Shown: positions 2,591-64,000 of the stretch, piece by piece | Position numbering within the stretch: the stretch's first letter is position 1 | Layout: each line of letters begins with the position of its first letter | Made by a program: the position numbers and the translations under genes | Assembly: GCA_964450915.1 (NCBI GenBank) | Contig: CAYVFG010000002.1 | Span: 5,379 to 69,378 of the forward strand | DNA: 64,000 nt | Direction of reading: 5' to 3' | Source: an uncultured Candidatus Saccharibacteria bacterium | GTDB taxonomy: Bacteria > Patescibacteriota > Andersenbacteria > UBA10190 | Notes under the pieces: generated by a model | The model's input: only the letters and a program-made list of their open reading frames with translations | The model's database searches: none | What the model was told of the DNA's origin: nothing

Positions 2591-4012
2591 ATGCAGTATA
2601 TGAACCTAGCTCGCGGCATGATTATTGGATTAGCTGTGGTATTTATTGCTTTGCAGGCAGTGTGCCTCACTACAATTCCTGGATTAATGGGCGACGAGGC
2701 TCATGAGGGCGAGAATGTGTTCCATATGCTTGATCAGAAAAAGATGGAAGTGCGGGGGGAGCGGTCATACATTGGTGCGGGAATAGATTATGTTCGAATC
2801 CCGTTTGTTGGTGCGTTCGGATACACGCTGCTTGCATTGCGTAGCGTAACGTTTATTGCGTCGATCCTATTTTTTGTCATGAGCGCGTATTTGCTTGCTA
2901 AATATTTGGGCGCATATCAAAGCTTGATTCCTCTCATTTTTCTAACATTTTCTCCGATATATATTACTCAGCAGCGACTTTCTTGGGCGGTTACACTATT
3001 GCCATTATTCGCCGTTGCTACGATATGGCTTTTGCAGTCAACATGGAGACATAAGTTTTTATTAGCAGGATTTGTTGGCGGGCTCGGCCTCGCGAATCAC
3101 TTGTTGTTTTTGCCCACACTTGTTGCGATTATTATCTGCGCCATTATTTGTGCAATAAGAAAACCTCAAGCAATTCTGTCTGCATGGCCCTTCATCATCG
3201 GATTCATTGCAGGGTTTGCCATGCAATTTACTATTATTCAGCTGTATCCGGACGATCAGGGAAGCCAAAAGATGATTGCGGAAACTTTTTTTGATCGCAT
3301 CCATGCGCTGCCCACCTTATTTCCAGAGCTCGTCTCAGGATCGTCGTACATTGCCTCATATACCGGGCACGAATTAAATCCCATAGTCATGGCTGCTATT
3401 ACTTCTGCGCTTAGTATTCTTGCCATTTTTGCACTTACGATTTCGAAACACAAAAAAATTGCATGGATTATTGCGACTGCATTGATAATTCATACACTTG
3501 TTTTATTGCGGATCATAGACCGATTTAGTTTGCGATACATGACTGTGTTTACGTTTGGATTTTTAGTACTTTCCGGTATCGGTCTAGAGAGTATCGTTGC
3601 ATTTGCTCGCAAACGCAGGCCAATTATTGCTCCCATTATAACGTGGCTTGTATGCTCAGCTCTTGTGTTATGGGCCATATTCGGCATTGCGGTGCCATAT
3701 GCAAAGACAGGCGGGTCAACGAATGTATTCTCTCTTGGCAATAGAACGGATAGCGCCTCGGCATTAGTTGATACGCGTCAATTATTTGCATGTGTGAACA
3801 ATCTCGGGCCCGTAACATCGGAAAATGTTCATATCTATAACAGGCTGGAATTTTGGAGCAGGCAGTATCCTGGCGTGCAGTTTGTTGATGAGGATCATAA
3901 AAAGGAGGCGAGATATGCTGTCGACTATCGCATATCCGGGAATACGAAGGCAGGAATGCCAGGAACAATTTGTCCACAACTCACAAATTTTCGCATAACA
4001 GAGAGAAAATAA
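2591..4012 (+). CDS. Polytopic membrane glycosyltransferase, GT-C fold, PMT_2/ArnT-like.
   Basis: About 12 predicted TM helices. First loop carries GDEAHEGENVFHM, a DE motif of the ArnT/PMT family. Starts 5 nt after the asnB stop. Confidence 0.6.
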   Translation: MQYMNLARGMIIGLAVVFIALQAVCLTTIPGLMGDEAHEGENVFHMLDQKKMEVRGERSYIGAGIDYVRIPFVGAFGYTLLALRSVTFIASILFFVMSAYLLAKYLGAYQSLIPLIFLTFSPIYITQQRLSWAVTLLPLFAVATIWLLQSTWRHKFLLAGFVGGLGLANHLLFLPTLVAIIICAIICAIRKPQAILSAWPFIIGFIAGFAMQFTIIQLYPDDQGSQKMIAETFFDRIHALPTLFPELVSGSSYIASYTGHELNPIVMAAITSALSILAIFALTISKHKKIAWIIATALIIHTLVLLRIIDRFSLRYMTVFTFGFLVLSGIGLESIVAFARKRRPIIAPIITWLVCSALVLWAIFGIAVPYAKTGGSTNVFSLGNRTDSASALVDTRQLFACVNNLGPVTSENVHIYNRLEFWSRQYPGVQFVDEDHKKEARYAVDYRISGNTKAGMPGTICPQLTNFRITERK

Positions 4013-4028
4013 TACTTGTCAAAAACTA

Positions 4029-4058
4029 TTGACACTTTATATGTTGTGTCAGTATGCT
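4029..4058 (+). promoter_or_regulatory. Sigma70-like promoter: TTGACA, 18-nt spacer, TATGCT.
   Basis: Read directly: ttgaca at 4029-4034 and tatgct at 4053-4058. It sits upstream of the GC-rich 4116..4538 ORF. Confidence 0.35.
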
Positions 4059-4115
4059 AGCTATCACAGTTAGTTTGAGGGTGGTCCTTTTTAGTCAAAT
4101 TCAAGGAACGAAAAC

Positions 4116-4538: not shown

Positions 4539-4562
4539 GCCCGCTGAAAATGGCGCGTGTTC

Positions 4563-4610: not shown

Positions 4611-4626
4611 ATGGTACACTTTTTGC

Positions 4627-6651
4627 ATGATTTTAGCGTTCTTAAAACGGCATAAAATAGACGCATATTTAGCAGTAGGACTGTTTCTTATTGCTTTTTT
4701 ACCAAGAGTATTGGGCTTGGGGGCGTTTTTGACTGCAGATGAAAAAAACTGGATCGGCAGATCGTATGAATTTGTGCGCGCATTTCATGATTTGCGATTT
4801 AATGACATGTTGCAGACGACTCACCCGGGAGTTACTACGCTATGGGTATCCGGTCTTGCGGTGATGGTTAAGTCGGCGATCTCACATGTCCAATTTGCGG
4901 ATACGAATTTGATTTATTTCGTGAAAATTACGCAATTTTCCATTGCGCTGGTAAACGCTCTCGCAATTCCTGCAATCTTCATTCTGCTATTGTTGGTACT
5001 AAGAAATCGTTTTCTTGCTGTTTTGGCAACGCTCTTTATTGCGCTCGACCCGTTCATTATAGGATATTCCAGAGTGGTTCATGTGGACGTGCTGATGGGG
5101 AGCTTTTTAACGCTTGCCGTACTAGCGAGCATGCTCTACGCCCGTCACCTTACTCGTCCATGGCTTGTTGCAAGCGCAGTGCTTTCCGTGCTGGCGATTC
5201 TCACAAAAATACCCGCTGTATTTATTTTGCCATTCATTATTGTTGCGCTGATTGCATATCATCCGGAAAAGATTATTTCGTGGCAATTTTTGCGTGATAG
5301 GGTTCGAGATGCTGTTACGTGGGTGCTCATGGGTGTTGTTATCACGCTTCTTATATGGCCCGCATTGCTGTGGGTGCCAAATCCTTCTGGAAACGTGCTG
5401 GAACTCAAGCGCGATATTTCTGATGCTGCCGTAACTCCTCATGACTCAAACGAGGATTATAACTTAGACGCAACGCACTATCCGTACGCATTACTCGATC
5501 GATCAAACCCAGTAACGCTCGTATTCGGAATAGTCGGACTCATGGGAGTAATTGTTCTTGTGGCAAAAAAGAAGGTTCCGCGAGAAATGCTGCTCATTGC
5601 AATATATTTGATCGGATTCGTTCTTATGATGACGCTTGGCGCGAAGAAAGGGGATAGATATATTATTGCCGCATTTTTTGCTCTCGACATATTGGCTGCG
5701 TATGGAGTTGTGTGGGTTGCATCGCTTGTGCCCACGCTCATAAAGCGCTTCAGGGGGAATGATAGAGTGTTTGCATTGCTTACAGTTGGGTATTTGTGCT
5801 TTATTGTACTGTCGTATCATCCATACGAAATTGCATATAGTAACCCGTTTTTTAAGGATAATTTGAGTCAGGAGTTAGGATGGGGCGAAGGGTTGGATCA
5901 GGTTGCTGCCTGGCTGAATACGAATCATCCTGACGCAGTTGTGGCTTCATGGTACCCGGAGGAGCTCGGAACGTTTACATCCGCTACGGTATTGCATATT
6001 AATGCGCACACGCAAAATCCGGTGAACTATATCGTCCTCTATCAGAATATGTTTGGCAGGTCCCCGGATTATTATTCAAATGATTTCATTGACGAATATT
6101 ACAAGAAGCAAATCCCTGTGTACGTTGCGAAAGTTGCGGGCAAAGAATATGCGTGGGTGTATGCAAAGCCAAGCTACACCAGCTCTGTTGGGGATTTGAA
6201 TGCGCAAACTGTTGCGATTCAGGAAATCGAAGTTACTCATAACGATATTGCTGGATTTCAGTTTTTGCCAGCGACGCATTTTGGAAAATCCGATACCGGG
6301 TCGTTTGCTATCAGTGTTTCTAAAACTTTAAACGGTCCTGTGCTATTTGCAACGAACATTTCAGTTACGGACGTAAAAGATACTCAATGGCAGCAGGTCT
6401 TGTTTCCTGATTCTCTCAAGATTGCAAAAGGCGATCATTTGTTTGTGAGCGTTCGAGGGGCTGGGACGACAGATCCGTATCCATCTGTGAGATATTCTCA
6501 AGCAGATATTCGAACTACGCCAATATATATCTCTCGAACTGGTAGTTCGCTTGAGGCGAAGCAAAAAACAGGAACAATGGCCATTCAATTGCTCTATCGC
6601 GATATTCAGGACAAGATTTCTACGGAACTAGAGGAAAAATTGCTGAAATAA
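4627..6651 (+). CDS. GT-C membrane glycosyltransferase, paralog family A. PMT_2/ArnT-like membrane domain plus a periplasmic C-terminal domain of about 280 aa.
   Basis: N-terminal PRVLGLGAFLTADEKNWIGRSYEF...HPGVTTLW. C-terminal GWGEGLDQVAAWLNTNHPDAVVASWY. Paralogous to 20725, 24710 and 36587. Confidence 0.65.
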   Translation: MILAFLKRHKIDAYLAVGLFLIAFLPRVLGLGAFLTADEKNWIGRSYEFVRAFHDLRFNDMLQTTHPGVTTLWVSGLAVMVKSAISHVQFADTNLIYFVKITQFSIALVNALAIPAIFILLLLVLRNRFLAVLATLFIALDPFIIGYSRVVHVDVLMGSFLTLAVLASMLYARHLTRPWLVASAVLSVLAILTKIPAVFILPFIIVALIAYHPEKIISWQFLRDRVRDAVTWVLMGVVITLLIWPALLWVPNPSGNVLELKRDISDAAVTPHDSNEDYNLDATHYPYALLDRSNPVTLVFGIVGLMGVIVLVAKKKVPREMLLIAIYLIGFVLMMTLGAKKGDRYIIAAFFALDILAAYGVVWVASLVPTLIKRFRGNDRVFALLTVGYLCFIVLSYHPYEIAYSNPFFKDNLSQELGWGEGLDQVAAWLNTNHPDAVVASWYPEELGTFTSATVLHINAHTQNPVNYIVLYQNMFGRSPDYYSNDFIDEYYKKQIPVYVAKVAGKEYAWVYAKPSYTSSVGDLNAQTVAIQEIEVTHNDIAGFQFLPATHFGKSDTGSFAISVSKTLNGPVLFATNISVTDVKDTQWQQVLFPDSLKIAKGDHLFVSVRGAGTTDPYPSVRYSQADIRTTPIYISRTGSSLEAKQKTGTMAIQLLYRDIQDKISTELEEKLLK

Positions 6652-6702: not shown

Positions 6703-7146
6703 TTATGTTGGGTCAACCCACTGAACTTCCAACTTCTTTGCGATCACCACGCAGAAGAGGCGGACTGTAATCAAGTCCCCGATGGTTGATATCTTAGGCT
6801 GCACGTAGTTCCAATTTGTAATAGTTGGGAACTTTTGTTGAGCCGCCTCCAGGATTTCGGGGGTTAATTCACCGGAAAGCTGCATGTCTTTGAAGCGACT
6901 GAGCGTGTGAGGATGGAAATCGGAGGAAGAGAGCTTGATGCTAAAGGTTCGTTCGAGACGGAATGCAATATCCAGGATATCGATGGATTCTCCACCGAGG
7001 TCATCCATAAACAACATATCCAAAGGCTTTTTTGTGGACTGGGCGAAGTCGTCATCGTCCAGGCCCAGGGCCTCCATGAGCACACCCTTTATAGCCAGAA
7101 AGATTGTTTCTGGCGTCCAAGTAGTCTGTTTTGATAGTGCCGGCAT
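6703..7146 (-). CDS. Carrier-protein-like protein (phosphopantetheine-attachment-type motif) with a C-terminal extension of about 75 aa.
   Basis: MDDLGGESIDILDIAFRLE resembles the ACP/PCP DLGxDSLD serine motif. Helix-1-like ETIFLAIKGVLMEALGLDDDDF. Stand-alone gene with its own promoter. Confidence 0.45.
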   Translation of the reverse strand: MPALSKQTTWTPETIFLAIKGVLMEALGLDDDDFAQSTKKPLDMLFMDDLGGESIDILDIAFRLERTFSIKLSSSDFHPHTLSRFKDMQLSGELTPEILEAAQQKFPTITNWNYVQPKISTIGDLITVRLFCVVIAKKLEVQWVDPT

Positions 7147-7199: not shown

Positions 7200-7229
7200 T
7201 TTTTACTACATAAATACTCTATTTGTCAA
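7200..7229 (-). promoter_or_regulatory. Sigma70-like promoter for the carrier-protein-like gene: TTGACA, 18-nt spacer, TAAAAA (read on the minus strand).
   Basis: Reverse complement of 7224-7229 is TTGACA and of 7200-7205 is TAAAAA. A GAAAGAGAG Shine-Dalgarno-like stretch lies about 10 nt before the ATG at 7146. Confidence 0.3.
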
Positions 7230-10021
7230 TATTTCTTTTTGTATGGGAATGGTATTGCGTATATGACCACGCATGCGATGATTCCTAGCACTGTGAGGAT
7301 TTCTGCAGTATGCACGGCGGGGGAGATGTATCTGAATGACACGATATGCGATCCTGCTGGTACTTGGGCTGCTTTAAACATGGTATCTGCTTTCATCTGA
7401 GGCGCTATCTTGCCGTCGATGTATGTTTGCCATTGGGGAAGCGTGCTATCCGTTACCACGAGGTATGCTGTTTTGTTTGTTGTTACTTGGACATCTACCC
7501 GTGTTTCTGTGTATGAGGTAATAGTTGCGGCAGCCTGCATTGTAATGTCCGGTTGATTATCGGTAAGATCGGGTGGTGTTGGAGCTGAAATATATACTAG
7601 TGACTTCGGATCAAAATCTTTGCTTCTCATTTGTGCTCGAATTTCATCATCCGCAGCAACGAGCGTTGCATGAGGCACCATAAATGCCTTTGGATATGCA
7701 TCTTTATTCTCGTATAATCGAACGTTACTGTCCCCAGTATCTGCAACATCAATAACTTTGTAGCCAGCATCAATCATAGGATCGTTTGTTTGTCCGTAAT
7801 CAAGTGATTGAGTGAAATGCGTAATACCAACGAGATTTACCAATGATCGATTCCGAGTGAGTGCGTGAACACCATCTCCATCGAACGCATCTGAATCATT
7901 TGCAAAGAATGAATCTACGAATTCTCGATAAGGGCGAATAGATAATGCCCCGATCCAGCGGGCGCTGGATGCACCTGCTACTGCTTGCATGTTGCGTACC
8001 AGCAAAGAGCTGTCTAAATCATGGGTAAGCGGATATTGCGCAGTATACTGAACGCTGAGAGGTTTTTTCGATACTGCTAGCTGTTTCGGAGTAGGGTTTT
8101 CAACTCTCATGAAGTAGGAGTCGGATTCATCGTTAATACTTGGGCTCATGAATAATTTCATGTTTGTATGTTCGGTGCTTGAAAATACAAGCATAAGATC
8201 TTTCTTGTTGCTTTCTGGTATTTGGGGGAAGCAGATTGTCTGATTTACTTTCTTAAATGCGTCTGCTGATGAAATGCTGGTGCGATACCATATCGTACCA
8301 GTTCGGCCGGATTGTACGGTAAGGTTTAGGTGAGAATTAGTATCGGAATCTGCCTGGATAGGTATAAGGAGACAGGATAAGTTTGACTGAAGAATGGTAA
8401 GTGGCTGATACACTGAAAATTTTGGAGATATATAATCAGAAAGCGTAATTTTTACATGAGGGTTGCCTGTGACGGGAAGATGTTCTGCTGCATACAGACG
8501 AGCAGGAAGTCCGGTATCGTGTTTGAATTCTTGGAGATCCTGAGCGAATGTAGATACTGCAAGCGCTTCGTGAGTTGCAACCCGAGGATTGTAATTCCAT
8601 CCGTATCCGATAAGGGTAATTGCTACTATCACTGGGATAGTCCAATAGAAAGTGCGGAATAATGAAACAATAACTGCAATAACCCCTACCGCTATCAGGA
8701 TAATAAAGCCGTGATTCCAGGAAAGACGTTCTGTCAGTATAGCCACAGCGTCTGTATTCTTCGTTGCGTATATCCAAAAGGGAAGAACGATAAGAAGAAA
8801 CGGCACCAGTATTGCGGAGAATGTTTTTGCTATTTTGGATGCTAGAGATGTTGATGCGTGTTCAATAATATCTTGCAACCCCGCAACAGCAAGTAACACC
8901 ATTCCAACGTCGAAAAAGAATACGAATCGTCCAACTACTCCTATGGTCTGAATGTAATGATTATTTACTAAAAATTGATACACAATCGAATATCGCCCAA
9001 GCATCAGGGTGATGCCAGTTACTACCAATATCAATCCAGATGTTCGTTCAATGCGCTTTGTGCGCCAATTGATTAGTGCAATACCTGCGAGCATGATCGG
9101 GATAATTCCGGTATATGCTGCTAATTCTTGAAATCCTTTCGGTCCGAAGTAATTATCGTGATCTCCAAATATGTAGGGGAAAATAAGAGTAATCGAGTCA
9201 TATGGGGGATAGCTGAATTCAAACAGCTCAGTGTAGGGCAAACCTGCTGCACGTTCTGTTTCCGGAACGAATTCTTGCAACGGCAGGATTGCTAAAGCGG
9301 AAAGGCAAACTCCCAAAATTCCCGCGAATATAGTGAGAGCGATTTTTTTACCAGCACCCTTTACGTTCTGTTTGATAGTTGGAATAAATGTGGTGAGCCC
9401 TAAAACCCCTGCTATGAAAAAGACGTACGCCACAACTTGCGGCTGCCCGCTCATTGCAATTGCTGCCGCGACGATTGCAAGAGTTGCTGAGTTTTTAACC
9501 GAGGGCTTTTTCAGTAACACATCTATTGTAATAAGCAACAATGGCAGAAGCATTGTGCTTGTATAGAAATTGACGTGATTCAAATGTCCGATAGAAAATC
9601 CGCAGTAGGCAAAGAGAACAGCACCTAGACTTGCAGCGGCGGGGTGGAATAGTCGCCTTCGCAAATAGGCGTACATGCACACACTGCCTATTAGGAAATA
9701 CAGAACAATAGACGCCTGAAGTAGGATGACAGGGGGTACATATAAAGCGCGCAAGATAAGGTGGATAGGGGTAAAGAAGCCCAGTTGACCCCATGCTAAC
9801 AGAGGCTGGCCGAATCCGAACTCGTTGCTCCACAGCGGCAGCTGCCAGTGATGTTGAAACTGCGCATAGACTGTTTCAATGGGGTAATAGATGATTTTAA
9901 GATCATCTAAAAAATACATTTGCTGGCCGGAAATAATTGGGCTGAAAAATACGAGCCAGCTTACAAGGACGAGTCCGATTCCAATAAATTGAGGCTTGAT
10001 ATTCATACGTTTATTTTTCAC
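7226..10021 (-). CDS. YfhO-family-like large membrane protein (931 aa) with a long periplasmic C-terminal domain.
   Basis: N-terminal region FFSPIISGQQMYFLDDLKIIYYPIETVY...LPLWSNEFGFGQPLLA resembles bacterial YfhO. Many TM helices. Overlaps the upstream gene by 11 nt. Confidence 0.6.
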   Translation of the reverse strand: MKNKRMNIKPQFIGIGLVLVSWLVFFSPIISGQQMYFLDDLKIIYYPIETVYAQFQHHWQLPLWSNEFGFGQPLLAWGQLGFFTPIHLILRALYVPPVILLQASIVLYFLIGSVCMYAYLRRRLFHPAAASLGAVLFAYCGFSIGHLNHVNFYTSTMLLPLLLITIDVLLKKPSVKNSATLAIVAAAIAMSGQPQVVAYVFFIAGVLGLTTFIPTIKQNVKGAGKKIALTIFAGILGVCLSALAILPLQEFVPETERAAGLPYTELFEFSYPPYDSITLIFPYIFGDHDNYFGPKGFQELAAYTGIIPIMLAGIALINWRTKRIERTSGLILVVTGITLMLGRYSIVYQFLVNNHYIQTIGVVGRFVFFFDVGMVLLAVAGLQDIIEHASTSLASKIAKTFSAILVPFLLIVLPFWIYATKNTDAVAILTERLSWNHGFIILIAVGVIAVIVSLFRTFYWTIPVIVAITLIGYGWNYNPRVATHEALAVSTFAQDLQEFKHDTGLPARLYAAEHLPVTGNPHVKITLSDYISPKFSVYQPLTILQSNLSCLLIPIQADSDTNSHLNLTVQSGRTGTIWYRTSISSADAFKKVNQTICFPQIPESNKKDLMLVFSSTEHTNMKLFMSPSINDESDSYFMRVENPTPKQLAVSKKPLSVQYTAQYPLTHDLDSSLLVRNMQAVAGASSARWIGALSIRPYREFVDSFFANDSDAFDGDGVHALTRNRSLVNLVGITHFTQSLDYGQTNDPMIDAGYKVIDVADTGDSNVRLYENKDAYPKAFMVPHATLVAADDEIRAQMRSKDFDPKSLVYISAPTPPDLTDNQPDITMQAAATITSYTETRVDVQVTTNKTAYLVVTDSTLPQWQTYIDGKIAPQMKADTMFKAAQVPAGSHIVSFRYISPAVHTAEILTVLGIIACVVIYAIPFPYKKKY

Positions 10022-12173: not shown

Positions 12174-12220
12174 ACAGTAGCATGTATGAAGGAAGTACGT
12201 TAAGAGGCATACTTATTACC

Positions 12221-15460: not shown

Positions 15461-15461
15461 A

Positions 15462-16496: not shown

Positions 16497-16573
16497 ATAT
16501 CTGCAGTATACACAAGATGTAGTATGATGAAAGCATGGGAATTTTATTGCTGTATGAGGGAATATTGGATTCC

Positions 16574-29762: not shown

Positions 29763-29778
29763 ACTGGCATCAGTATAT

Positions 29779-33260: not shown

Positions 33261-33294
33261 ATTACAATCCGCCCTTATATATAATTGTTCGCAT

Positions 33295-35795: not shown

Positions 35796-35804
35796 TCACA
35801 TTCT

Positions 35805-57793: not shown

Positions 57794-57969
57794 ATGCGCG
57801 TTCTTATATAATACATCGTCACAAACATACAAGCAGCGGCTGCTAACGCAGGAAATACGAGCACTGAGAACGTAGCAGGGTGCAGGTAGCGGGCATACGC
57901 CACAATGCTGGCAGAAATGATGAATGCGATACCTAGCAGCAAATCTATATTTCTCTTTCGCGATTCCAT
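57790..57969 (-). CDS. Unannotated small 2-TM membrane protein of 59 aa (MESRKRNIDLLLGIAFIISASIVAYARYLHPATFSVLVFPALAAAACMFVTMYYIRTRI).
   Basis: Translated by hand. Its stop TGA overlaps the ATG of the downstream gene (ATGA). It is just below the track's 60-aa cut-off. Confidence 0.3.
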   Translation of the reverse strand: MESRKRNIDLLLGIAFIISASIVAYARYLHPATFSVLVFPALAAAACMFVTMYYIRTRI

Positions 57970-58505
57970 AGGCTTTTTATATAATCCTTTGTCTGAGACA
58001 TAGTAGGCATCACTGGATATACCCTAGCATGAATGTCGCTTACGCTCCATTGAACAGGTTCCCCGTCCGTAAACAGCATCATATCGATAGACTGGTTTGT
58101 ATCCTGAAACGATGCAGTAACTGGGAATAGCAATGTTTTCGTTTGCAATCCTGCCTTGTCTACATCTTTATTGTAGAGCTGTTCCTTATCATACCCAAGC
58201 CAAAATACGCCATTTCGGACGCCTAAGTCTATCGTATTTGCATGCTCGGGATTAAACGTGATAGTTATGGCAATCTCTTTTCCAAATACAGGAGAATTTA
58301 TAAATACATCTGCATGCGCTAAGGATTCTAAAATATGCGTAGTATTATCTTGAATAGGGTAGGGGATAGCATGTATGGTTTCCAATGGAGCAATGTTTAC
58401 CGGCCCCGAATACAAAATAGGGCGAATATATATAGCGCCCGTAATGATAAGCGCCAACAATATGCAGATGCTGCTATTTGCGAATAATCGATTTTGCATA
58501 CGCAA
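57945..58505 (-). CDS. Membrane-anchored hypothetical protein (186 aa) with an N-terminal TM helix and a beta-rich domain.
   Basis: N-terminal hydrophobic helix SSICILLALIITGAIYI. No recognised catalytic motif. Confidence 0.45.
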   Translation of the reverse strand: MRMQNRLFANSSICILLALIITGAIYIRPILYSGPVNIAPLETIHAIPYPIQDNTTHILESLAHADVFINSPVFGKEIAITITFNPEHANTIDLGVRNGVFWLGYDKEQLYNKDVDKAGLQTKTLLFPVTASFQDTNQSIDMMLFTDGEPVQWSVSDIHARVYPVMPTMSQTKDYIKSLWNREREI

Positions 58506-59904
58506 TATCTTTCTCAGTAATTTCTTGTATAAGCCAAAGAACTATAACGAAGAGTAATCCTAGGAGCACATATTGCCCGAGAAGCGCAATGCCTGACACT
58601 TTCCAAAAATATGTCGGCAATACAGCACATACGGTTGCGACGCAGACATTCACAGTGCTGCGCACAGGAAATGAGATCTTGAATACTTGAAAGGTATACA
58701 CTCCCAATGCAATAAGCCCAAGAGCCCCAGCAATGGTTGTTTGCCATGCCGCACCAATAAGGCCGTACATGGGAATCAGGAACATGCCCAACACGGCGCT
58801 TGTAACTATCATCGCACCTGTTATATACAATCCAACCTTTGCCTTGCCGGCACCGGCGACTATGTTCGCTAGGAGCAAATAGAACGACAAGCAGCCGAGC
58901 CCGAGCATTAATATCGTTAAAATAGGCGCTGCTTGGATATACTTGGTTGAGAAAAATAGTATCACAAGCCCCTTGCTTGTTGCGGACGCAAGAACGATGC
59001 TCGGAACGATGAGAATGATCAGGTATCTCAATGCATCTTTGATAAATTGGATAGCTTTATCGTGGTCTGCCCCGGGGCGAGTGAGCGCCGCCACACTCGG
59101 AAGCAACACGAACGATAATCCTTGTAGCAGCATGTATGAAATCCTTGAAAGCGTTACGGCAGCATTGTAGTATCCGGCAAGGACGTCATTTTTGAGCATC
59201 GCTTTCACCATGAATAAGTCTTGGCTCATCAAAATTTGCAAGCCAACCAAGATAATCGCATACGTGCCGGCAAACGAAAGAAACGATCGCACATGAATGG
59301 CATGCCCCTCGCTTTTTGGAATATTCCGTGTCCAATACCATCCAAGAATTGCAGCAATGATTCCGCCAATTGCGAATCCTGCCAGCGCGCCGTAGAGAGA
59401 AAAGAAATAGAGCAACGCCAGCGCGCCGCACAATTTTGCAATTGCATATATAGAGGTTAAAAATGCCTGCGCATTAAAACGATGCATGCCGCTCAAAAAT
59501 TGAACATAAATTGGATAGAACGCCTGGAAAAAGATAATGACCGAAACAAACAGGACATATAAACTCAAATGAGGATCGTGCAAGGCAAACGCAATAAGAG
59601 GTGAGGCAAGAGCTAGCAGCAACGACAGCCCGATACTGATTAAGAGCTGGAGCCGAAGCGCGTGCGACAGTATCGACTTCGCATGCTGCGGATCCTGGGC
59701 AACGAATTTTGAAACGGCGCTTGGCACTCCAAGAGTCAAAATCATTCCAAAAATTGTTTGAATAGAGAGCACCACACCGTATATTCCATACTCCGCCGGT
59801 CCGAGTAATCGCCCAATTAATACATGCGTTGCATAACCAAACAGCAGCACGATTGCCTGAGCTACCATTAACGCAATTGCTCCTGTTAATTTTGTCTGTT
59901 TCAT
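58474..59904 (-). CDS. Polysaccharide biosynthesis protein / Wzx-like flippase (MOP superfamily).
   Basis: About 14 TM helices with the Polysacc_synt-like layout. GAIALMVAQAIVLLFGYATHVLIGRLLGPAEYGIYG N-terminus. Confidence 0.7.
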   Translation of the reverse strand: MKQTKLTGAIALMVAQAIVLLFGYATHVLIGRLLGPAEYGIYGVVLSIQTIFGMILTLGVPSAVSKFVAQDPQHAKSILSHALRLQLLISIGLSLLLALASPLIAFALHDPHLSLYVLFVSVIIFFQAFYPIYVQFLSGMHRFNAQAFLTSIYAIAKLCGALALLYFFSLYGALAGFAIGGIIAAILGWYWTRNIPKSEGHAIHVRSFLSFAGTYAIILVGLQILMSQDLFMVKAMLKNDVLAGYYNAAVTLSRISYMLLQGLSFVLLPSVAALTRPGADHDKAIQFIKDALRYLIILIVPSIVLASATSKGLVILFFSTKYIQAAPILTILMLGLGCLSFYLLLANIVAGAGKAKVGLYITGAMIVTSAVLGMFLIPMYGLIGAAWQTTIAGALGLIALGVYTFQVFKISFPVRSTVNVCVATVCAVLPTYFWKVSGIALLGQYVLLGLLFVIVLWLIQEITEKDIAYAKSIIRK

Positions 59905-62180
59905 AGGCCGAGCGCTATTAGATCGATGCCAATTGTTTTATGCATCGGATTATCTATAGTAAGCGTGATAAATCCTCTGTCGTCAATATGGGCTTGTTCC
60001 GGCGAGAGGGTGATAGCTTGCTGCACTTCATTACTCAGGCTTATTTTCTCACCGGATGTCGCAATAACAGAAAGGCCTGAAACGGGTGCCGTAAGGCGAA
60101 TGACGAACTGCAATTCCGAATCATTCGGCCATATTTTTTGCACATAATCTGCAACGTTAAATTCAAGCGGGATATACGGGGACGATGTCTGCCTGTAGGT
60201 TATATGTTTTATTGCTTTTGGGTCAGAAAGTTCCGGAGTGCGAATACTTGCTTCCAAATGTTCGAACGCATCTTCATCATCGCCGATATCGTTTGCAAGG
60301 GTTGTAGGTTTTAGCAAAAAATCACAAAGCGAATCTGCGCTGCATGACGAATCCGTATTTTTTATTTTATATATGCCAGCATTGTCAGCAATGTTTACTT
60401 CTTGCAACAGAGGGTTATGGGCAAATGCGAATTCGGACGATCCGGCAATACCGGTGACATAGCCTACAGAATGCTTCGCAAGTAGATTTGCTATTTCCGG
60501 GAGAGAGCCCAATGCAAATATTTTTTCATAATCCAATTGATTGATATACAGGTTATTTCGAATAGCAGATTGGCCGGCTTCGTTCATCTGCGTTTGCAAA
60601 TCTGAAGATATTCTCGTAAACATCGGGTGACCCGATAGCACGAACCAGGAAGCGGATCGCTTATTATAATCGTCAATTAAAATTCCCATACCCGATTTAT
60701 CCTGAGCGAGACGAGAAATTACATATTGCTGATCGCTCGTGAGCGTTGAATTTGTTCGAACGCTATGGCTTATGGATCCGAACGCCTTCTGAGTAGAAGA
60801 GATGGTTGCAGCAAGAACAATAACTATCGTAATGGCGAATAGAGATTTTTTTCTTCCGGCAATGCTCCAAAAGAAGTACGCCCCCAGAATAGAGAACGGA
60901 ACTGCGATGTAAAACAATGCCCTGATCGGCGGAATATCTATGCCGAGATTCGGCCCTTGTGATAGCGCAAACATAGCAAGCGCCATGATGCAAAATATAA
61001 TGTGCAAAGGATTCGTGCGGCGCTTGCGTGTGGCTTGGATAAGAAGCAGCACCAGTCCGAATAAACCCGCAAAAAACCACACAGTCCCCATAGTGCTTGG
61101 ATAGTCTGTAATATTGGGCAGCAAATTTGCCAAATGTGGGTGAAGGGTGAAAATTGACGGAATTTTCTTAATCAGCCCAAAAGCAATTGCAAAGAATATT
61201 GCCGCAGCAATACCGATAATCGCCCCAGCTGAAACGTGCCAGTGACTGCGTATTCCATTTTTAATATCCTTGCTGTGAATAATGGCCAATGTAATTCCGC
61301 CAAATAGAAACGCAAACGCTCCGATAAATGCTGAGAATTGATGGGTGAAAAATAGAGCAATTGCGCAGGTAAAGAACAATACGATGTCCGTCCACTTACG
61401 CCTTGCCACAAACGAAAGCGCCAGCAATATCATTCCAAACAAGAAAAACTCTCCGAATGAGTTTTGAAAGTGATACCCGGGTTCTCGCAAGTATCGCAAA
61501 AATCGAAACTGCGTAAGCAGGAGGATGATGCTAAGTAACGGCAACAACATATATTTCTTTTTTGGAAAAAGCTCTTGCGTAAGCGCCCCGGCAATCCACG
61601 CAACAGCAATCGCCGAGACAATAGAAAAAATACTAATCGTAAGAAGGGGAAGTGCCGATACTCGCATTACGAACGCAGACACGCCGTGCAAGCCGGGAGT
61701 ATAGAAATCAACCGGATCGCGATTTAATAGGGCAAAAGATTTGCTGTAATCGGGGAGATGGTTGGTTGCAATAGAATCCTGCGCCCAAATAATAGTTTTT
61801 TGAACGTCGCCAGTTGGCAAACCGTCTTGAATAAATAAAAATGGAACAATAAAGAAAGAGGAAAGCAATACCACACCCAGCACCACGGCGAGTACGCGCG
61901 CCATATTCATATAGGAATATATTTCTTTTTTGAAAACGAGCGAAGCAAACAATCCGACAATAGCTATTCCTGCAAAACTATACGCGACAGGAATACCCAC
62001 CAATAATCCGAGCATCAGAGCAATAATGTTTATCCCTAAGCTCCACAAGAGAATCCGCGCACCTTTGGAAAATACTTCGGTGCTATTTCGAATTTTTATA
62101 AAAAATATTCCGGGTATAAAAAACGGCAAAAATGCTGCAACAACAGCCCAAATAGCTTGTACTATACTCATACCAAACAA
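59901..62180 (-). CDS. Large polytopic membrane protein (759 aa, about 15 TM helices) with a soluble C-terminal domain of about 280 aa. Candidate GT-C or polymerase-like protein.
   Basis: Long multi-TM N-terminal region. I recognise no family motif. It sits in the operon between a GT4 and a flippase. Confidence 0.45.
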   Translation of the reverse strand: MFGMSIVQAIWAVVAAFLPFFIPGIFFIKIRNSTEVFSKGARILLWSLGINIIALMLGLLVGIPVAYSFAGIAIVGLFASLVFKKEIYSYMNMARVLAVVLGVVLLSSFFIVPFLFIQDGLPTGDVQKTIIWAQDSIATNHLPDYSKSFALLNRDPVDFYTPGLHGVSAFVMRVSALPLLTISIFSIVSAIAVAWIAGALTQELFPKKKYMLLPLLSIILLLTQFRFLRYLREPGYHFQNSFGEFFLFGMILLALSFVARRKWTDIVLFFTCAIALFFTHQFSAFIGAFAFLFGGITLAIIHSKDIKNGIRSHWHVSAGAIIGIAAAIFFAIAFGLIKKIPSIFTLHPHLANLLPNITDYPSTMGTVWFFAGLFGLVLLLIQATRKRRTNPLHIIFCIMALAMFALSQGPNLGIDIPPIRALFYIAVPFSILGAYFFWSIAGRKKSLFAITIVIVLAATISSTQKAFGSISHSVRTNSTLTSDQQYVISRLAQDKSGMGILIDDYNKRSASWFVLSGHPMFTRISSDLQTQMNEAGQSAIRNNLYINQLDYEKIFALGSLPEIANLLAKHSVGYVTGIAGSSEFAFAHNPLLQEVNIADNAGIYKIKNTDSSCSADSLCDFLLKPTTLANDIGDDEDAFEHLEASIRTPELSDPKAIKHITYRQTSSPYIPLEFNVADYVQKIWPNDSELQFVIRLTAPVSGLSVIATSGEKISLSNEVQQAITLSPEQAHIDDRGFITLTIDNPMHKTIGIDLIALGL

Positions 62181-63319
62181 TTATAATATACCTTTGCAGT
62201 TTCTTGATACGAATACTCTTCACCTTTTTCATACAGCGCCCTTTTATCTTCTTCCGAAATAGGATGCTGCAACAGATCTATAATATGATGCGCATATTCT
62301 CGAGCATCTCCCGCAGAAGCGAAAAACTTGCTATGCAAACTTTCGGGAAGAATAATGGGGCGAATCCCTATATTGCTTGTAACAATAGGTATGCCAGAGA
62401 CGCATGCAAGCATTGCGCGATAGCTGCTTTTTGCACGATTTACGATACTGTCATCTATCGGATCAACGATAATAGTTGTTTTTGCAGTAATTTCTGAAAT
62501 ATCTGCATCAGAAAATCGACCAAACCATTCAACGTAGCGTTCTACATTCTTTTCAGAAAATATTTTTCGCAATTCCTGCTCATCGTCCCCGGATCCCGCA
62601 ATAAGCATTGTTGCATCGGGAATTTCTTTTCGTACTTGCTGCAATATTTCTGGCAACATAAAAACCAAGTGCCCAGATGATGCCGAAATGCTGCCGATAT
62701 AGGTGATGACGTTATTCGAGCGATCAAGACCAGCCTCCGCCTGCTGGGCTTCGGCGGTTAAACCGGTAGGGATTAATGTTATTGGCACATCTTTTTGCGC
62801 AATTGCACGCATATGGTCTACGAGAAACGGTGTTGCGGCAATAATGTTCTGCGCCATTACACTTGCTCTTCGTTCTGCCCAATGCAGTACCGCGCGCTCG
62901 GACAAGCTCGATACAACATTTGCAAATAATTCAAAATCATCTACATCTAAAACAACTTTAGTTTTGATAAATATTCGAGCAAGAGATACGGCAAATACAT
63001 TCTCCGGAAGCGGCTTTACGATTACTATAACGTCCGGACGAATACTCAGTAACGATTGCAAAGCACGAATGGCATTGCCAAGCATTAAGAATAACAATGC
63101 GGCTCCGCGTTTTCGCTTTTTTCCTTCAGCTGTTCGTGCAAACGGATTCTTGCCAACACTCACAACGCTCAACCCGTCGATTTGCGGCGTTTCGCCCTCA
63201 TCATGCACCAGCAGCGTCACATCGTTGCCCATTCGGGCAATTTCTTTTGCAACAGGGATAATTCGCCCGATAAGCGTGGACTGAACGATCGATTGCGTTG
63301 TAACAAAAGCGATCTTCAT
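62168..63319 (-). CDS. GT4-family glycosyltransferase.
   Basis: MKIAFVTTQS N-terminal domain and VSGIPIVTSNIG C-terminal region. Confidence 0.8.
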   Translation of the reverse strand: MKIAFVTTQSIVQSTLIGRIIPVAKEIARMGNDVTLLVHDEGETPQIDGLSVVSVGKNPFARTAEGKKRKRGAALLFLMLGNAIRALQSLLSIRPDVIVIVKPLPENVFAVSLARIFIKTKVVLDVDDFELFANVVSSLSERAVLHWAERRASVMAQNIIAATPFLVDHMRAIAQKDVPITLIPTGLTAEAQQAEAGLDRSNNVITYIGSISASSGHLVFMLPEILQQVRKEIPDATMLIAGSGDDEQELRKIFSEKNVERYVEWFGRFSDADISEITAKTTIIVDPIDDSIVNRAKSSYRAMLACVSGIPIVTSNIGIRPIILPESLHSKFFASAGDAREYAHHIIDLLQHPISEEDKRALYEKGEEYSYQETAKVYYNCLV

Positions 63320-64000
63320 GCGACTGCTGCAACACGATTCTTTTCCTGCTTGCTAATTCTCGTTATAAGGGGAAGTATTGCTAGCGCAGATTTTATTAGA
63401 GTTACGGTATCAAGCTTGCTCCCGTCTTTTGATTCCCATGCGATAGGGAAGTTGTGAGTGGTGTATCCTCTGCGGATAGATCGATATGCGATCTCCGTAT
63501 CGAATAGCCATCTGTTTTCTTCCAAATCTTTATACAAATCTTGCGCTACTTCTTTTTTATATCCCTTAAAACCGCACATCGTGTCAATATCTCCGAAGCC
63601 GAACAGCCTCATGTACGCGCGATTTAAATATCCGGAAAGAGATCGCAATGCGGAATGCCGCTCCATCACAGAGCCTGGGAGCCACCTGCTTCCGATAGCG
63701 ATATCGTATCCCTCCAATGCCGCTATCATTTTTGGCAATTCAGAAATATCAGTAGCACCGTCTGCGTCCATGAATACTATATGATCGCCAGTTGCAGCCA
63801 GTACGCCTGCTTTTACTGCGGCGCCTTTTCCCATATTCTGCGGTTGAGAAATGACGAAAAATCCGGGAATACCAGAACCTGCTTGCCGTGCTGTTTCTTG
63901 CGTGTTATCCGTACTCCCATCATCAACAATTAATACTTCAGAAATTTGCGTCGGGTGCGCAGAGCAGTAAGAAGCAATTGATACTAGAAACGGCTGGAGC
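63316..64000 (-). CDS. GT2 polyprenol-phosphate sugar synthase-like (GtrB/Dpm1-like), partial. The N-terminus lies beyond the window end; the track shows only the internal Met at 63834.
   Basis: I extended the reading frame upstream by hand. It reads ...VLIVDDGSTDNTQETARQAGSGIPGFFVISQPQNMGKGAAVKAG...FMDADGATD with no stop up to position 64000. Confidence 0.8.
   Translation of the reverse strand, partial: LQPFLVSIASYCSAHPTQISEVLIVDDGSTDNTQETARQAGSGIPGFFVISQPQNMGKGAAVKAGVLAATGDHIVFMDADGATDISELPKMIAALEGYDIAIGSRWLPGSVMERHSALRSLSGYLNRAYMRLFGFGDIDTMCGFKGYKKEVAQDLYKDLEENRWLFDTEIAYRSIRRGYTTHNFPIAWESKDGSKLDTVTLIKSALAILPLITRISKQEKNRVAAVA

What the first reader, a model, noticed from the sequence alone, without database searches (positions are those of the whole stretch)
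2591..64000. Very dense cluster of GT-C glycosyltransferases with polyprenol-phosphate-sugar synthases
The window holds at least 8 PMT_2/ArnT-type GT-C proteins with a DE loop motif and 3 YfhO-like proteins. It also holds 3 other large polytopic proteins, 4 Dpm1/GtrB-like GT2 synthases and a GtrA-like protein. Established knowledge: the Gtr (GtrA/B/C), Dpm1 plus PMT, and ArnC plus ArnT systems all pair a GT2 polyprenol-P-sugar synthase with a GT-C periplasmic transferase. I do not know of a described system with this many parallel branches in one locus. It may glycosylate many periplasmic or surface targets, for example S-layer or pilin glycosylation or a wall glycopolymer.
Basis: partly seen in the sequence, partly recalled or inferred. 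Interest (0 to 1): 0.8.

Follow-up and report, generated by a model that had tools for sequence, protein, structure and literature searches.

The report
Sixteen membrane glycosyltransferases in one locus
A tiny-genome, uncultured CPR bacterium devotes this whole 64-kb stretch to building surface sugars, including 15 complete and one cut-off gene for membrane glycosyltransferases that work outside the cell membrane. These enzyme types are known, but this density is unusual, and it points to an elaborate, still unknown cell-surface glycan.

Summary
The window carries 15 complete GT-C glycosyltransferase genes plus a 16th cut by the left edge, about 28 kb or 44% of the sequence.
- Ten are PMT_2-like: seven by Pfam and three by profile comparison. 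Eight of these have an invariant DE after the first membrane helix.
- Four are YfhO-like.
- One is DUF6541-type. Its AlphaFold model is closest to STT3, AglB, PglB and DPY19.

Four soluble GT2 enzymes are Dol-P-Man-synthase-like. No GtrA-like gene exists. The rest of the window encodes two Wzx flippases, MurJ, about ten cytoplasmic glycosyltransferases, sugar epimerases, one C-methyltransferase and five other methyltransferases, and a TagF-like enzyme.

The host is a CPR bacterium; relatives are labelled Andersenbacteria or Saccharibacteria. The locus is syntenic in relatives and spans at least 76 kb in one of them.

With four donor synthases for 16 transferases, it is not a set of parallel Gtr modules. 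It looks more like the mycobacterial scheme, in which a few polyprenyl-phosphate sugars feed many extracytoplasmic transferases, here coupled to Wzx-dependent assembly. The acceptor (wall polymer or protein) is unknown.

I rate it a new variant of a known kind, interest 0.6.

The parts
1..675 (-). 5' part of a 16th GT-C gene, cut by the window edge. It encodes an N-terminal helix, an ecto-domain of about 150 aa and the first membrane helices.
   Evidence: The open frame runs off the left end. Its orthologue L082:19053-21299 (phmmer E 3.5e-107) is an 11-TM protein with the GGDP...KRLPGYPLLL motif. hhalign gives 90.6% to the 34113 family.
712..2586 (+). AsnB-type glutamine amidotransferase
   Evidence: Pfam Asn_synthase E 3e-89, plus GATase_6/7.
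2591..4012 (+). Probable PMT_2-like GT-C, 473 aa, about 10 TM, GDEA after TM1. This is the weakest assignment.
   Evidence: PMT_2 E 0.013. hhalign 88% to the 34113/PMT_2-like family. The motif is conserved in the L082 orthologue.
4627..6651 (+). PMT_2 GT-C, paralogue group A, ADEK motif
   Evidence: PMT_2 21.3 bits. phmmer E 1e-51 to 20725 and 24710.
6703..7146 (-). Carrier-protein-like ORF (PP-binding)
   Evidence: Pfam PP-binding 28.9 bits.
7226..10021 (-). YfhO-family GT-C, 931 aa, LDDL motif, large C-terminal ecto-domain
   Evidence: Pfam YfhO 68 bits.
10011..12173 (-). Divergent PMT_2-like GT-C with an N-terminal ecto-domain, SDDV motif (D250 and D251 invariant)
   Evidence: hhalign 92% to PMT_2 group A and 96.4% to the 34113 family. 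6 of 26 family members hit PMT_2. Only 26 homologues were found.
12143..12835 (+). Bitopic protein with a beta-rich ecto-domain, function unknown
   Evidence: No Pfam hit. Sequence read.
12817..14550 (+). YfhO-like GT-C, 577 aa
   Evidence: phmmer E 6e-16 to 49731. No direct Pfam hit.
14498..16670 (-). Two NAD-dependent sugar epimerase/dehydratases (14498-15460 and 15462-16670)
   Evidence: Pfam Epimerase E 7.5e-57 and 8.7e-41.
16535..17806 (+). Wzx-type flippase
   Evidence: Pfam Polysacc_synt 56.7 bits.
18347..20728 (+). PMT_2 GT-C, group B, with an N-terminal ecto-domain, IDEG motif
   Evidence: PMT_2 29.3 bits.
20725..22167 (-). PMT_2 GT-C, group A, TDEP motif
   Evidence: PMT_2 33 bits and PMT 28.7 bits.
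22185..22892 (-). SAM methyltransferase
   Evidence: Methyltransf_11 E 1e-18.
22977..24494 (+). PMT_2 GT-C, group B, EDES motif
   Evidence: PMT_2 34.3 bits.
24710..26188 (-). PMT_2 GT-C, group A, PDET motif
   Evidence: PMT_2 39.1 bits.
26209..26934 (+). SAM methyltransferase
   Evidence: Methyltransf_23 E 2e-16.
26918..28120 (-). GT4 cytoplasmic glycosyltransferase
   Evidence: Glyco_trans_1_4 and Glycos_transf_1.
28131..29798 (-). PMT_2 GT-C, singleton group, TDEN motif
   Evidence: PMT_2 44.6 bits.
29638..30495 (+). Dpm1/AglJ/ArnC-like GT2 (polyprenyl-phosphate sugar synthase type), divergent from 28131
   Evidence: Glycos_transf_2 99.5 bits. Best NCBIfam matches are AglJ, ArnC and Dol-P-hexose transferase.
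30492..31796 (-). NDP-hexose C-methyltransferase
   Evidence: Methyltransf_14 E 2e-47, plus Methyltransf_13.
31820..32488 (+). SAM methyltransferase, first gene of the + strand operon
32535..33260 (+). Dpm1/PpgS-like GT2
   Evidence: Best NCBIfam matches are PpgS, AglJ and Dol-P-hexose transferase. Best PDB hit is Dol-P-Man synthase 5MLZ, E 3.7e-11.
33241..34224 (+). Sugar epimerase/dehydratase
   Evidence: Epimerase E 4e-44.
34221..35795 (+). Divergent PMT_2-like GT-C, AGDV motif. The ORF opens at 34113; the likely start is 34221.
   Evidence: hhalign 98.6% (E 8e-16, 450 columns) to PMT_2 group A. 27 of 69 family members hit PMT_2. G49 and D50 are nearly invariant.
35805..36590 (+). SAM methyltransferase
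36587..38155 (+). PMT_2 GT-C, group A, QDEQ motif
   Evidence: PMT_2 25.8 bits. phmmer E 3e-16 to 20725.
38139..40172 (+). YfhO-like GT-C with a C-terminal CBM-like domain, GGDPWQ motif (G38, G39 and D40 invariant)
40169..44733 (+). Four consecutive GT4 glycosyltransferases
44935..46005 (-). GT9 glycosyltransferase
   Evidence: Glyco_transf_9 E 2e-37.
45986..47131 (-). GT4 glycosyltransferase
47128..47910 (-). Generic GT2
47900..48562 (-). Polysaccharide deacetylase
   Evidence: Polysacc_deac_1 E 2e-17.
48559..49734 (-). TagF-like CDP-glycerol glycerophosphotransferase domain protein
   Evidence: Glyphos_transf 33.6 bits.
49731..51878 (-). YfhO-family GT-C, IGDM motif
   Evidence: YfhO 49.5 bits. 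phmmer E 3e-33 to 7226.
52171..52875 (-). Dpm1-like GT2, 292 bp upstream of YfhO 49731
   Evidence: Best PDB hit is Dol-P-Man synthase 5MLZ, E 5e-27 over the whole catalytic domain, followed by ArnC. NCBIfam best match AglJ.
52872..55008 (-). Two probable GT-B proteins: 52872-53927 (weak GT9) and 53920-55008 (weak GT1-like)
55005..56555 (-). MurJ-family flippase
   Evidence: MurJ E 1e-65.
56552..57832 (-). Unclassified polytopic protein: N-terminal helix, ecto-domain, then about 6 TM. The likely start is M17.
   Evidence: No family hit. Orthologue in L081.
57945..58505 (-). Bitopic ecto-domain protein, function unknown
58474..59904 (-). Wzx-type flippase
   Evidence: Polysacc_synt 88 bits.
59901..62180 (-). 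DUF6541-type GT-C, 14 TM plus a CBM-like C-terminal domain. P122, G124 and D125 are invariant.
62168..63319 (-). GT4 glycosyltransferase
63316..64000 (-). Dpm1-like GT2. The reading frame continues to the window edge.
   Evidence: NCBIfam Dol-P-hexose transferase and AglJ. The upstream frame is open to position 63999. The complete 259-aa orthologue is in L081.

Best explanation
The window is most of one very large cell-envelope glycan assembly locus of a CPR/Patescibacteria bacterium. The locus is at least 64 kb here and at least 76 kb in a relative.

Proposed mechanism:
1. Sugar tailoring. Cytoplasmic enzymes tailor nucleotide sugars: four epimerase/dehydratases, a C-methyltransferase, five SAM methyltransferases, an AsnB-type amidotransferase and a deacetylase.
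2. Lipid-linked glycans. Cytoplasmic GT4, GT2 and GT9 enzymes build lipid-linked oligosaccharides. A TagF-like enzyme may add a glycerol-phosphate polymer.
3. Flipping. Two Wzx flippases, and perhaps the MurJ-type flippase, move these across the membrane.
4. Lipid-linked monosaccharide donors. Four soluble Dol-P-Man-synthase-like GT2 enzymes load single sugars onto polyprenyl phosphate.
5. Transfer outside the membrane. Fifteen to sixteen GT-C enzymes then use these few lipid-linked donors to extend, branch or decorate the glycan. Each has its own acceptor or linkage specificity, and many carry their own CBM-like or beta-rich ecto-domain. The GT-C set comprises PMT_2-like, YfhO-like and one DUF6541 (STT3-like) enzyme.

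The logic is that of mycobacterial arabinogalactan and lipoarabinomannan assembly: few donors, many GT-C enzymes. It is not that of one-synthase-one-transferase Gtr modules.

What is shown: family and fold assignments, conserved catalytic-loop acidic residues, paralogue structure, synteny and gene order.
What is inferred: donor identity, extracytoplasmic catalysis, sequential action and the acceptor.
For: - GT-C identity: Pfam PMT_2 and YfhO hits; profile links for 10011, 34113, 38139 and 2591.
- Catalytic loop: the acidic residue after the first core helix is invariant or nearly so in most families and conserved in the YfhO group. The N-terminal tails before that helix are Lys/Arg-rich, and the short loops preceding it in 18347, 10011 and 59901 are basic. 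This places the motif outside the membrane.
- Donor synthases: the four GT2 enzymes match Dol-P-Man synthase, AglJ, PpgS and ArnC best.
- Ratio: four synthases to 16 GT-C genes, and no GtrA.
- Conventional pathway in the same operons: GT4, GT9, GT2, Wzx, MurJ and TagF-like genes.
- Paralogues are old and each is retained. They share 21-30% identity with each other, and each has its own orthologue at 48-65% in other MAGs.
- Synteny in L001-L005, L081 and L082.
- The mycobacterial paradigm, in which nucleotide-sugar GT-A/B enzymes are followed by polyprenyl-phosphate-sugar GT-C enzymes for elongation and branching, is described in PMC2157549.
- YfhO plus a CsbB-type GT2 glycosylates teichoic acids outside the cell: PMC5836110.
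Against: - No initiating phosphoglycosyltransferase, LCP-type ligase, Wzy or Wzz is recognisable in the window, so the pathway is incomplete as seen.
- The flippase for the polyprenyl-phosphate sugars is unidentified.
- No acceptor can be named.
- PMT_2 relatives, and the STT3/DPY19-like fold of 59901, are equally compatible with protein acceptors.
- Only two of the 16 GT-C proteins were modelled.
- The assignment of 2591 is weak.
- Topology was inferred from local charge bias only. A whole-protein positive-inside count with crude helix prediction was uninformative.
Confidence: 0.62

Rival explanations
1. The locus is mainly a protein glycosylation system. The PMT_2-like enzymes O-glycosylate Ser/Thr-rich regions of many surface proteins (pilins, adhesins, S-layer), as PMT and bacterial Pmt do. 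59901 acts as an oligosaccharyltransferase-like enzyme that moves the Wzx-flipped oligosaccharide en bloc onto proteins.
For: - The DE motif in the first loop is the PMT-type signature (own knowledge), and it is invariant here.
- 59901 is structurally closest to STT3, AglB, PglB and DPY19, all of which modify proteins.
- 59901 sits between GT4/GT2 genes and a Wzx gene.
- There are weak NCBIfam matches to PgfS, PgfM1 and PgfM2 of the S. mutans protein-glycosylation pathway.
- GtrB plus GT-C and Pgf systems glycosylate streptococcal membrane proteins (PMC11092751).
- A 1228-aa surface-type protein flanks the locus in a relative.
- Pilin glycosylation is suspected but untested in Saccharibacteria (PMC11623550).
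Against: - Sixteen protein glycosyltransferases would be unprecedented.
- Many of them carry CBM-like carbohydrate-binding domains, which suggests glycan acceptors.
- The TagF-like, GT9 and deacetylase genes point to a polymer.
- 59901 has no WWDYG motif, only D-D-Y at 503-505.
Confidence: 0.22
2. One reading: many parallel, independent Gtr-like three-component modules (synthase, flippase, GT-C), each adding one decoration to a different target.
For: Three GT2/GT-C adjacencies exist: 29638 beside 28131, 32535 two genes from 34113, and 52171 beside 49731.
Against: - There are only four synthases for 16 GT-C genes.
- There is no GtrA or GtcA.
- The synthases have no membrane helices, unlike GtrB.
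- No phage or serotype-conversion context is present.
- Most GT-C genes have no synthase next to them.
Confidence: 0.1
3. The accumulation is largely non-functional: decaying or redundant paralogues from local duplication, with no coherent pathway.
For: Gene content varies between relatives. L082 has extra 10011-like, PMT_2 group A and YfhO copies.
Against: - All ORFs are intact.
- Catalytic residues are invariant.
- Each paralogue has its own conserved orthologue across MAGs at 48-87% identity.
- Paralogues are only 21-30% identical, so the duplications are old and have been retained in a reduced genome.
Confidence: 0.04

Closest known systems
Mycobacterial and corynebacterial arabinogalactan, lipomannan and lipoarabinomannan assembly (EmbA/B/C, AftA-D, MptA-C, PimE with decaprenyl-P-arabinose and polyprenyl-P-mannose; PpgS with Rv3779)
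   Same: - A few polyprenyl-phosphate sugar donors feed a large set of GT-C enzymes.
- These enzymes elongate and branch a glycan outside the membrane, after cytoplasmic GT-A/B steps (PMC2157549).
- GT-C numbers are comparable.
- Soluble PpgS-like GT2 enzymes are present.
- AftD, AftA and AftB are among the structural neighbours.
   Different: - There is no sequence-level relationship to the Emb, Aft or Mpt families. The enzymes here are PMT_2-like, YfhO-like and DUF6541-type.
- The genes are concentrated in one locus rather than scattered.
- The host is a CPR bacterium with a genome of about 1 Mb.
- Products are unknown.
CsbB/GtcA/YfhO and GtlA/GtlB three-component glycosylation of teichoic acids in Firmicutes; GtrA/GtrB/GtrC of Shigella phages
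   Same: - A GT2 synthase is paired with a GT-C (YfhO-type) transferase acting outside the membrane (PMC5836110).
- Here GT2 52171, YfhO 49731 and TagF-like 48559 are adjacent.
   Different: - There is no GtrA/GtcA flippase.
- The synthases lack membrane anchors.
- There is a four-fold excess of GT-C enzymes over synthases.
Pgf pathway of Streptococcus mutans (PgfS, PgfM1, PgfE, PgfM2) and GtrB with PgtC2 protein O-glycosylation
   Same: The gene order GT2, epimerase, GT-C ... GT-C at 32535-40172 resembles pgfS-pgfM1-pgfE-pgfM2. There are weak NCBIfam matches to PgfS, PgfM1 and PgfM2.
   Different: Scores are far below the equivalog cut-offs (28 bits against 1500). There are many more transferases, and the acceptor is unknown.
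Oligosaccharyltransferases STT3/AglB/PglB and C-mannosyltransferase DPY19 (for 59901 only)
   Different: - There is no sequence similarity.
- There is no WWDYG motif.
- The catalytic-type loop follows the fourth helix, not the first.
- The family is annotated only as DUF6541.

Membership tests
GT-C glycosyltransferase superfamily (fold level) | Polytopic membrane core of about 8-14 helices, with a long first extracytoplasmic loop | tested here: met
   All 15 complete proteins have 8-14 hydropathy-predicted helices. A loop of 45-75 aa follows the first core helix.
GT-C glycosyltransferase superfamily (fold level) | Conserved acidic residue(s) in the first extracytoplasmic loop | tested here: met
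   - DE is invariant in the three Pfam-detected PMT_2 groups (A, B and 28131).
- DD is invariant in the 10011 family (D250, D251).
- GD is invariant or nearly so in the 38139, 34113 and 59901 families; the YfhO group aligns DD, GD or AD there.

GT-C glycosyltransferase superfamily (fold level) | The acidic loop faces the outside of the membrane | tested here: inconclusive
   Local charge bias (basic N-terminal tails, basic short loops before the core helix) places the loop outside. A global positive-inside count with crude helix calls was uninformative. No dedicated topology predictor was available.
GT-C glycosyltransferase superfamily (fold level) | Three-dimensional GT-C fold | tested here: met
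GT-C glycosyltransferase superfamily (fold level) | Uses a polyprenyl-phosphate-linked sugar donor | not testable with these tools
   This needs a biochemical assay.
Pfam PMT_2 (PF13231; GT39/GT83-related) | Score at or above the gathering threshold of 26.1 bits | tested here: met
   - Met by 18347, 20725, 22977, 24710 and 28131.
- Below threshold: 36587 (25.8), 4627 (21.3), 2591 (16.2).
- No direct hit for 34113 and 10011, which join only by profile comparison.
Pfam YfhO (PF09586) | Score at or above the gathering threshold of 28.5 bits | tested here: met
   7226 scores 68 bits and 49731 scores 49.5 bits. 12817 and 38139 have no direct hit. They join by phmmer E 6e-16 and hhalign 98.7%.
Gtr / CsbB-GtcA-YfhO three-component glycosylation system | GtrA/GtcA-family small four-helix flippase | tested here: not met
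   There is no Pfam GtrA hit on any ORF tested. No ORF of 70-220 aa has three or more hydrophobic helices. Such a gene could lie elsewhere in the genome.
Gtr / CsbB-GtcA-YfhO three-component glycosylation system | GtrB/CsbB-type GT2 with C-terminal membrane helices, paired one-to-one with a GT-C | tested here: not met
   The GT2 catalytic domains are Dpm1-like. However, 32535 and 52171 have no predicted helices, and the only one in 29638 lies in the N-terminal extension of the ORF call. The ratio is 4 synthases to 16 GT-C genes.
Dol-P-Man synthase / polyprenyl-phosphate glycosyl synthase type GT2 | Closest characterised relatives are polyprenyl-phosphate sugar synthases, across the whole catalytic domain | tested here: met
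   - 52171 against 5MLZ: E 5e-27, residues 6-230.
- 32535 against 5MLZ: E 3.7e-11.
- The best NCBIfam matches of all four are among AglJ, PpgS, Dol-P-hexose transferase and ArnC.
- All scores are far below the equivalog cut-offs.

Oligosaccharyltransferase (STT3/AglB/PglB), considered for 59901 | WWDYG motif at the start of the C-terminal ecto-domain | tested here: not met
   No WWDYG is present. The family has an invariant D503 within I-D-D-Y-N about 35 residues after the last helix. Whether this is equivalent is untested.
Oligosaccharyltransferase (STT3/AglB/PglB), considered for 59901 | Closest structural neighbours are oligosaccharyltransferases | tested here: met
- Foldseek: DPY19 and STT3 at E 5e-7 to 1e-5, PglB at 8e-5, against ArnT at 8e-3.
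- The margin is modest.

The most novel reading that the evidence does not exclude
CPR bacteria of this lineage build a complex wall heteropolysaccharide or lipoglycan outside the membrane, by a mycobacterium-like relay of 16 or more GT-C enzymes.

These enzymes include families with no characterised member:
- the lineage-restricted 10011 family;
- the 34113 family;
- the 38139 family, which is YfhO-like;
- a DUF6541 enzyme (59901) that works as a new, WWDYG-less oligosaccharyltransferase-like en bloc transferase for the Wzx-flipped glycan.

The product would be a major determinant of the unknown CPR envelope and of attachment to host cells.
Probability: 0.25. Interest if true: 0.8.

Novelty: new variant of a known kind. 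Interest (0 to 1): 0.6.

Why it matters
The structure and biogenesis of the CPR/Patescibacteria cell envelope are described in the literature as unclear or unexplored (PMC5220378; PMC11623550). These organisms have genomes of about 1 Mb or less; the longest contigs carrying relatives of this locus are 0.47-0.85 Mb.

Spending 64-76 kb on one glycan locus is therefore a very large investment. Its number of GT-C enzymes rivals the whole genome of Mycobacterium tuberculosis (that count is from my own knowledge). The investment implies a surface glycan central to their biology, possibly to episymbiotic attachment, phage defence or envelope integrity.

The locus also gives concrete, conserved candidate genes. 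These include several uncharacterised GT-C families and an STT3-like DUF6541 protein, all suitable for heterologous expression, structure determination and enzymology.

Tried and rejected
- Exact-sequence look-ups of window proteins and of the 100%-identical P0001 found no contig. The source record could therefore not be read. Its closest relatives were used instead.
- Both metagenome scans, for 56552 and for 2591, returned nothing.
- Profile searches of the PDB by sequence gave no significant hit for the 38139, 59901 and PMT_2 group A families. Fold comparison was needed instead.
- hhalign of 59901 against the other families was weak, at most 37%. Its GT-C assignment rests on the structural model and on DUF6541 hits of relatives.
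- A global positive-inside count from crude hydropathy helices did not settle topology.
- The afdb50 fold library was unavailable.
- No tRNA or Rfam family lies in the window. GC content is flat at 42-46%, and no integrase or phage gene is present. I therefore rejected a mobile-island or prophage (Gtr-like serotype-conversion) origin.
- I rejected the transporter interpretation of the polytopic proteins. Only 16535, 58474 and 55005 are flippases.
- Literature searches for GT-C in Patescibacteria, and for DUF6541, DUF6311 or DUF6044, found nothing.
- 56552 could not be assigned as Wzy, as a ligase or as GT-C.

Full report
**What is in the window**

The 64-kb window is almost fully coding, with about 49 genes and a flat GC content of 42-46%. 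It has no tRNA and no Rfam RNA. Pfam and NCBIfam scans of every ORF of 150 aa or more show that nearly every recognisable gene serves glycan biosynthesis.

Genes that are not GT-C:
- An AsnB-type amidotransferase (712-2586).
- Four NAD-dependent sugar epimerase/dehydratases (14498, 15462, 33241, and the one beside it in the list).
- An NDP-hexose C-methyltransferase (30492).
- Five SAM methyltransferases (22185, 26209, 31820, 35805, and one more).
- Seven GT4 (26918, 40169, 41292, 42335, 43504, 45986, 62168).
- One clear and one weak GT9 (44935, 52872).
- A weak GT-B (53920) and a generic GT2 (47128).
- A polysaccharide deacetylase (47900).
- A TagF-like glycerophosphotransferase (48559).
- Two Wzx-type flippases (16535, 58474) and a MurJ-type flippase (55005).
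- A small carrier-protein-like ORF (6703-7146).

**Checking the observation: PMT_2-type proteins**

- Seven proteins hit Pfam PMT_2 at E<1e-3: 4627, 18347, 20725, 22977, 24710, 28131 and 36587. Five of them reach the gathering threshold.
- An eighth, 2591, hits only at E 0.013. It aligns to a PMT_2-like family profile at 88% hhalign probability.
- All eight have Asp-Glu a few residues after the first core membrane helix.
- That DE is invariant in every orthologue and paralogue I could align.

**Checking the observation: YfhO-type proteins**

- 7226 and 49731 hit Pfam YfhO.
- 12817 is their paralogue (phmmer E 6e-16).

**Checking the observation: donor synthases**

- Four GT2 proteins are 29638, 32535, 52171 and 63316. 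The frame of 63316 runs to the window edge.
- Their best matches are polyprenyl-phosphate sugar synthases: AglJ, PpgS, haloarchaeal Dol-P-hexose transferase and ArnC.
- The best solved-structure relative of 52171 and 32535 is Pyrococcus Dol-P-Man synthase 5MLZ, at E 5e-27 and 3.7e-11.

**Checking the observation: GtrA**

The one item I could not confirm is the GtrA-like protein. There is no Pfam hit. No ORF of 70-220 aa in the window has three or more hydrophobic helices.

**The 'other' polytopic proteins are also GT-C**

- 38139:
  - Its family (alignment A1) matches the YfhO group at 98.7% hhalign probability over 384 columns.
  - Its AlphaFold model has pLDDT 91.6.
  - It also has a CBM35/CBM6-like C-terminal domain.
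- 34113:
  - It has only 83 representatives at E<=1e-3 among 1.84 billion proteins.
  - 27 of 69 of these hit PMT_2 and 12 hit PMT.
  - The family aligns to PMT_2 group A over its full length (98.6%, E 8e-16).
- 10011:
  - Only 26 homologues were found.
  - It aligns to PMT_2 group A at 92% and to the 34113 family at 96.4%.
  - 6 of 26 members hit PMT_2.
- 59901:
  - Relatives carry DUF6541.
  - Its model has pLDDT 92.7.
  - Foldseek ranks DPY19, STT3 and PglB ahead of ArnT.
- Left edge of the window:
  - The frame open on the minus strand at 1-675 is the start of another such gene.
  - Its orthologue in a relative is an 11-helix protein carrying the 34113-family motif.
- 56552 (about 7 helices) remains unclassified.

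The tally is 15 complete GT-C genes plus one truncated by the window. Together they encode about 9,400 codons, or 44% of the window.

**Catalytic loop and topology**

- In most families the most conserved position is the acidic residue after the first core helix. It is D38/E39 in group A, G-G-D40 in 38139, G49-D50 in 34113, D250-D251 in 10011 and P122-G124-D125 in 59901.
- The tails before that helix are Lys/Arg-rich.
- In proteins with extra N-terminal parts (18347, 10011, 59901), a short basic loop precedes the helix.
- By the positive-inside rule this puts the motif outside the membrane, as in solved GT-C enzymes.
- This is an inference. A global charge count using crude helix calls was uninformative, and no topology predictor was available.

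**Organism and conservation**

- The closest loci for the central C-methyltransferase are uncultured 'Candidatus Saccharibacteria' MAGs at 79-82% identity.
- The closest protein homologues are named 'Candidatus Andersenbacteria bacterium' by NCBI. 100%-identical copies of 38139 and 59901 sit on one NCBI contig of 78,276 bp.
- The host is therefore a CPR/Patescibacteria bacterium.
- The region 20.7-44 kb is syntenic in L001-L005.
- A 541-kb contig of a relative carries the same locus between at least positions 27.9 and 104.5 kb. It has extra 10011-like, PMT_2 group A and YfhO paralogues. Beyond the window's right end it has more GT2 and GT4 genes, a 595-aa unknown membrane protein and a 1228-aa Peptidase_S74-domain protein.
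- Paralogues within the window are only 21-30% identical, while each has its own orthologue at 48-87%. The duplications are therefore old and every copy is maintained.
- Among 82 fetched loci from many phyla that share the C-methyltransferase, only this lineage has four or more GT-C genes nearby, one Paceibacterota locus has three, and no other locus has more than one.

**Mechanism**

The arrangement gives two long operons and a mosaic left half.
- The operon at 31.8-44.7 kb on the + strand reads methyltransferase, Dpm1-like GT2, epimerase, GT-C, methyltransferase, GT-C, GT-C, then four GT4.
- The operon at 44.9-64 kb on the - strand reads, in transcription order: Dpm1-like GT2, GT4, DUF6541 GT-C, Wzx, two unknown membrane proteins, MurJ, two GT-B, Dpm1-like GT2, YfhO, TagF-like, deacetylase, GT2, GT4, GT9.
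- In the left half, single GT-C genes alternate in orientation.

Four donor synthases serve 16 GT-C enzymes, most GT-C genes have no synthase beside them, and GtrA is absent. The locus is therefore not a stack of independent Gtr modules.

The best-supported reading has four parts:
- Cytoplasmic GT-A/B enzymes and Wzx flippases deliver lipid-linked glycans.
- A few polyprenyl-phosphate monosaccharides are made by the Dpm1-like enzymes.
- Many GT-C enzymes, often carrying their own carbohydrate-binding-type ecto-domains, then extend, branch or decorate the product outside the membrane.
- The product may be highly methylated.

This is the logic of mycobacterial lipomannan, lipoarabinomannan and arabinogalactan synthesis (PMC2157549). 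At the scale of one pair (52171/49731 next to a TagF-like gene) it is the logic of CsbB/YfhO teichoic-acid glycosylation (PMC5836110).

**What remains open**

- The acceptor is unknown. The PMT-type DE motif, the STT3/DPY19-like fold of 59901 and weak similarity to the streptococcal Pgf proteins (PMC11092751) keep protein glycosylation alive as a rival or as a parallel function.
- No priming phosphoglycosyltransferase, LCP ligase or recognisable Wzy is in the window.
- The flippase for the monosaccharide donors is unidentified.

**Novelty**

- All enzyme classes here are known kinds.
- What is new is their concentration and diversity in one conserved locus of an ultra-small genome.
- Also new is the presence of several GT-C families without any characterised member: 10011, 34113, the 38139-type and DUF6541.
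- I found no paper in the held library describing GT-C expansions in Patescibacteria or these DUFs.
- Reviews and genome papers state that the CPR envelope and its glycosylation are unresolved.
- I therefore rate it a new variant of a known kind, with moderate to high interest.

Noticed in passing
window 1-675 (-): A gene cut by the left window edge. It is the orthologue of a 734/748-aa, 11-helix protein in L082 that carries the 34113-family GGDP...KRLPGYPLLL motif. It is likely a 16th GT-C, and the finding's coordinates did not include it.
   Followed up: yes
window 18347-18950, 11500-12140 (10011 N-terminus), 57300-57780 (56552 N-terminus), 12143-12835, 57945-58505, 150-640: A recurring architecture: one N-terminal helix followed by a beta-rich ecto-domain of about 150 aa. 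It appears fused to three GT-C or polytopic proteins and to the left partial gene, and as two stand-alone bitopic proteins. Homology between these domains was not tested. They may be acceptor-binding modules.
   Followed up: no
window 6703-7146 (-) and 712-2586 (+): A carrier-protein-like ORF (PP-binding, 28.9 bits) lies between a PMT_2 gene and a YfhO gene, close to an AsnB-type amidotransferase. This hints at an acyl or aminoacyl modification of the glycan.
   Followed up: partly
window 59901-62180 (-): The DUF6541-type protein has an invariant D503 in an I-D-D-Y-N stretch about 35 residues after its last membrane helix. This is roughly where oligosaccharyltransferases carry WWDYG. Whether the two are equivalent is untested.
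   Followed up: partly
window 17803-18318 (-): A 171-aa protein with a single N-terminal hydrophobic helix (MTKQIRYELISVISLAVV...) that looks vaguely pilin-like. It has no Pfam hit, and its role in the locus is unknown.
   Followed up: no
window 56552-57832 (-): A polytopic protein between MurJ and Wzx with no family match and no metagenome relatives found. Only one orthologue was seen (L081, 83% identity). By position it could be a polymerase or ligase, but this is unsupported.
   Followed up: partly
L081 1-3661 and 6285-8072: In the 541-kb relative contig the locus continues past the window's right end. It includes a 595-aa, 12-helix protein with no Pfam hit, and it ends next to a 1228-aa Peptidase_S74-domain protein that may be a surface fibre.
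   Followed up: no
window 34113-34224 and 29638-29798: The longest-ORF starts of 34113 and 29638 overlap neighbouring genes by more than 100 nt. Orthologue lengths suggest later true starts, about 34221 for 34113. The apparent N-terminal helix of GT2 29638 is probably not translated.
   Followed up: partly
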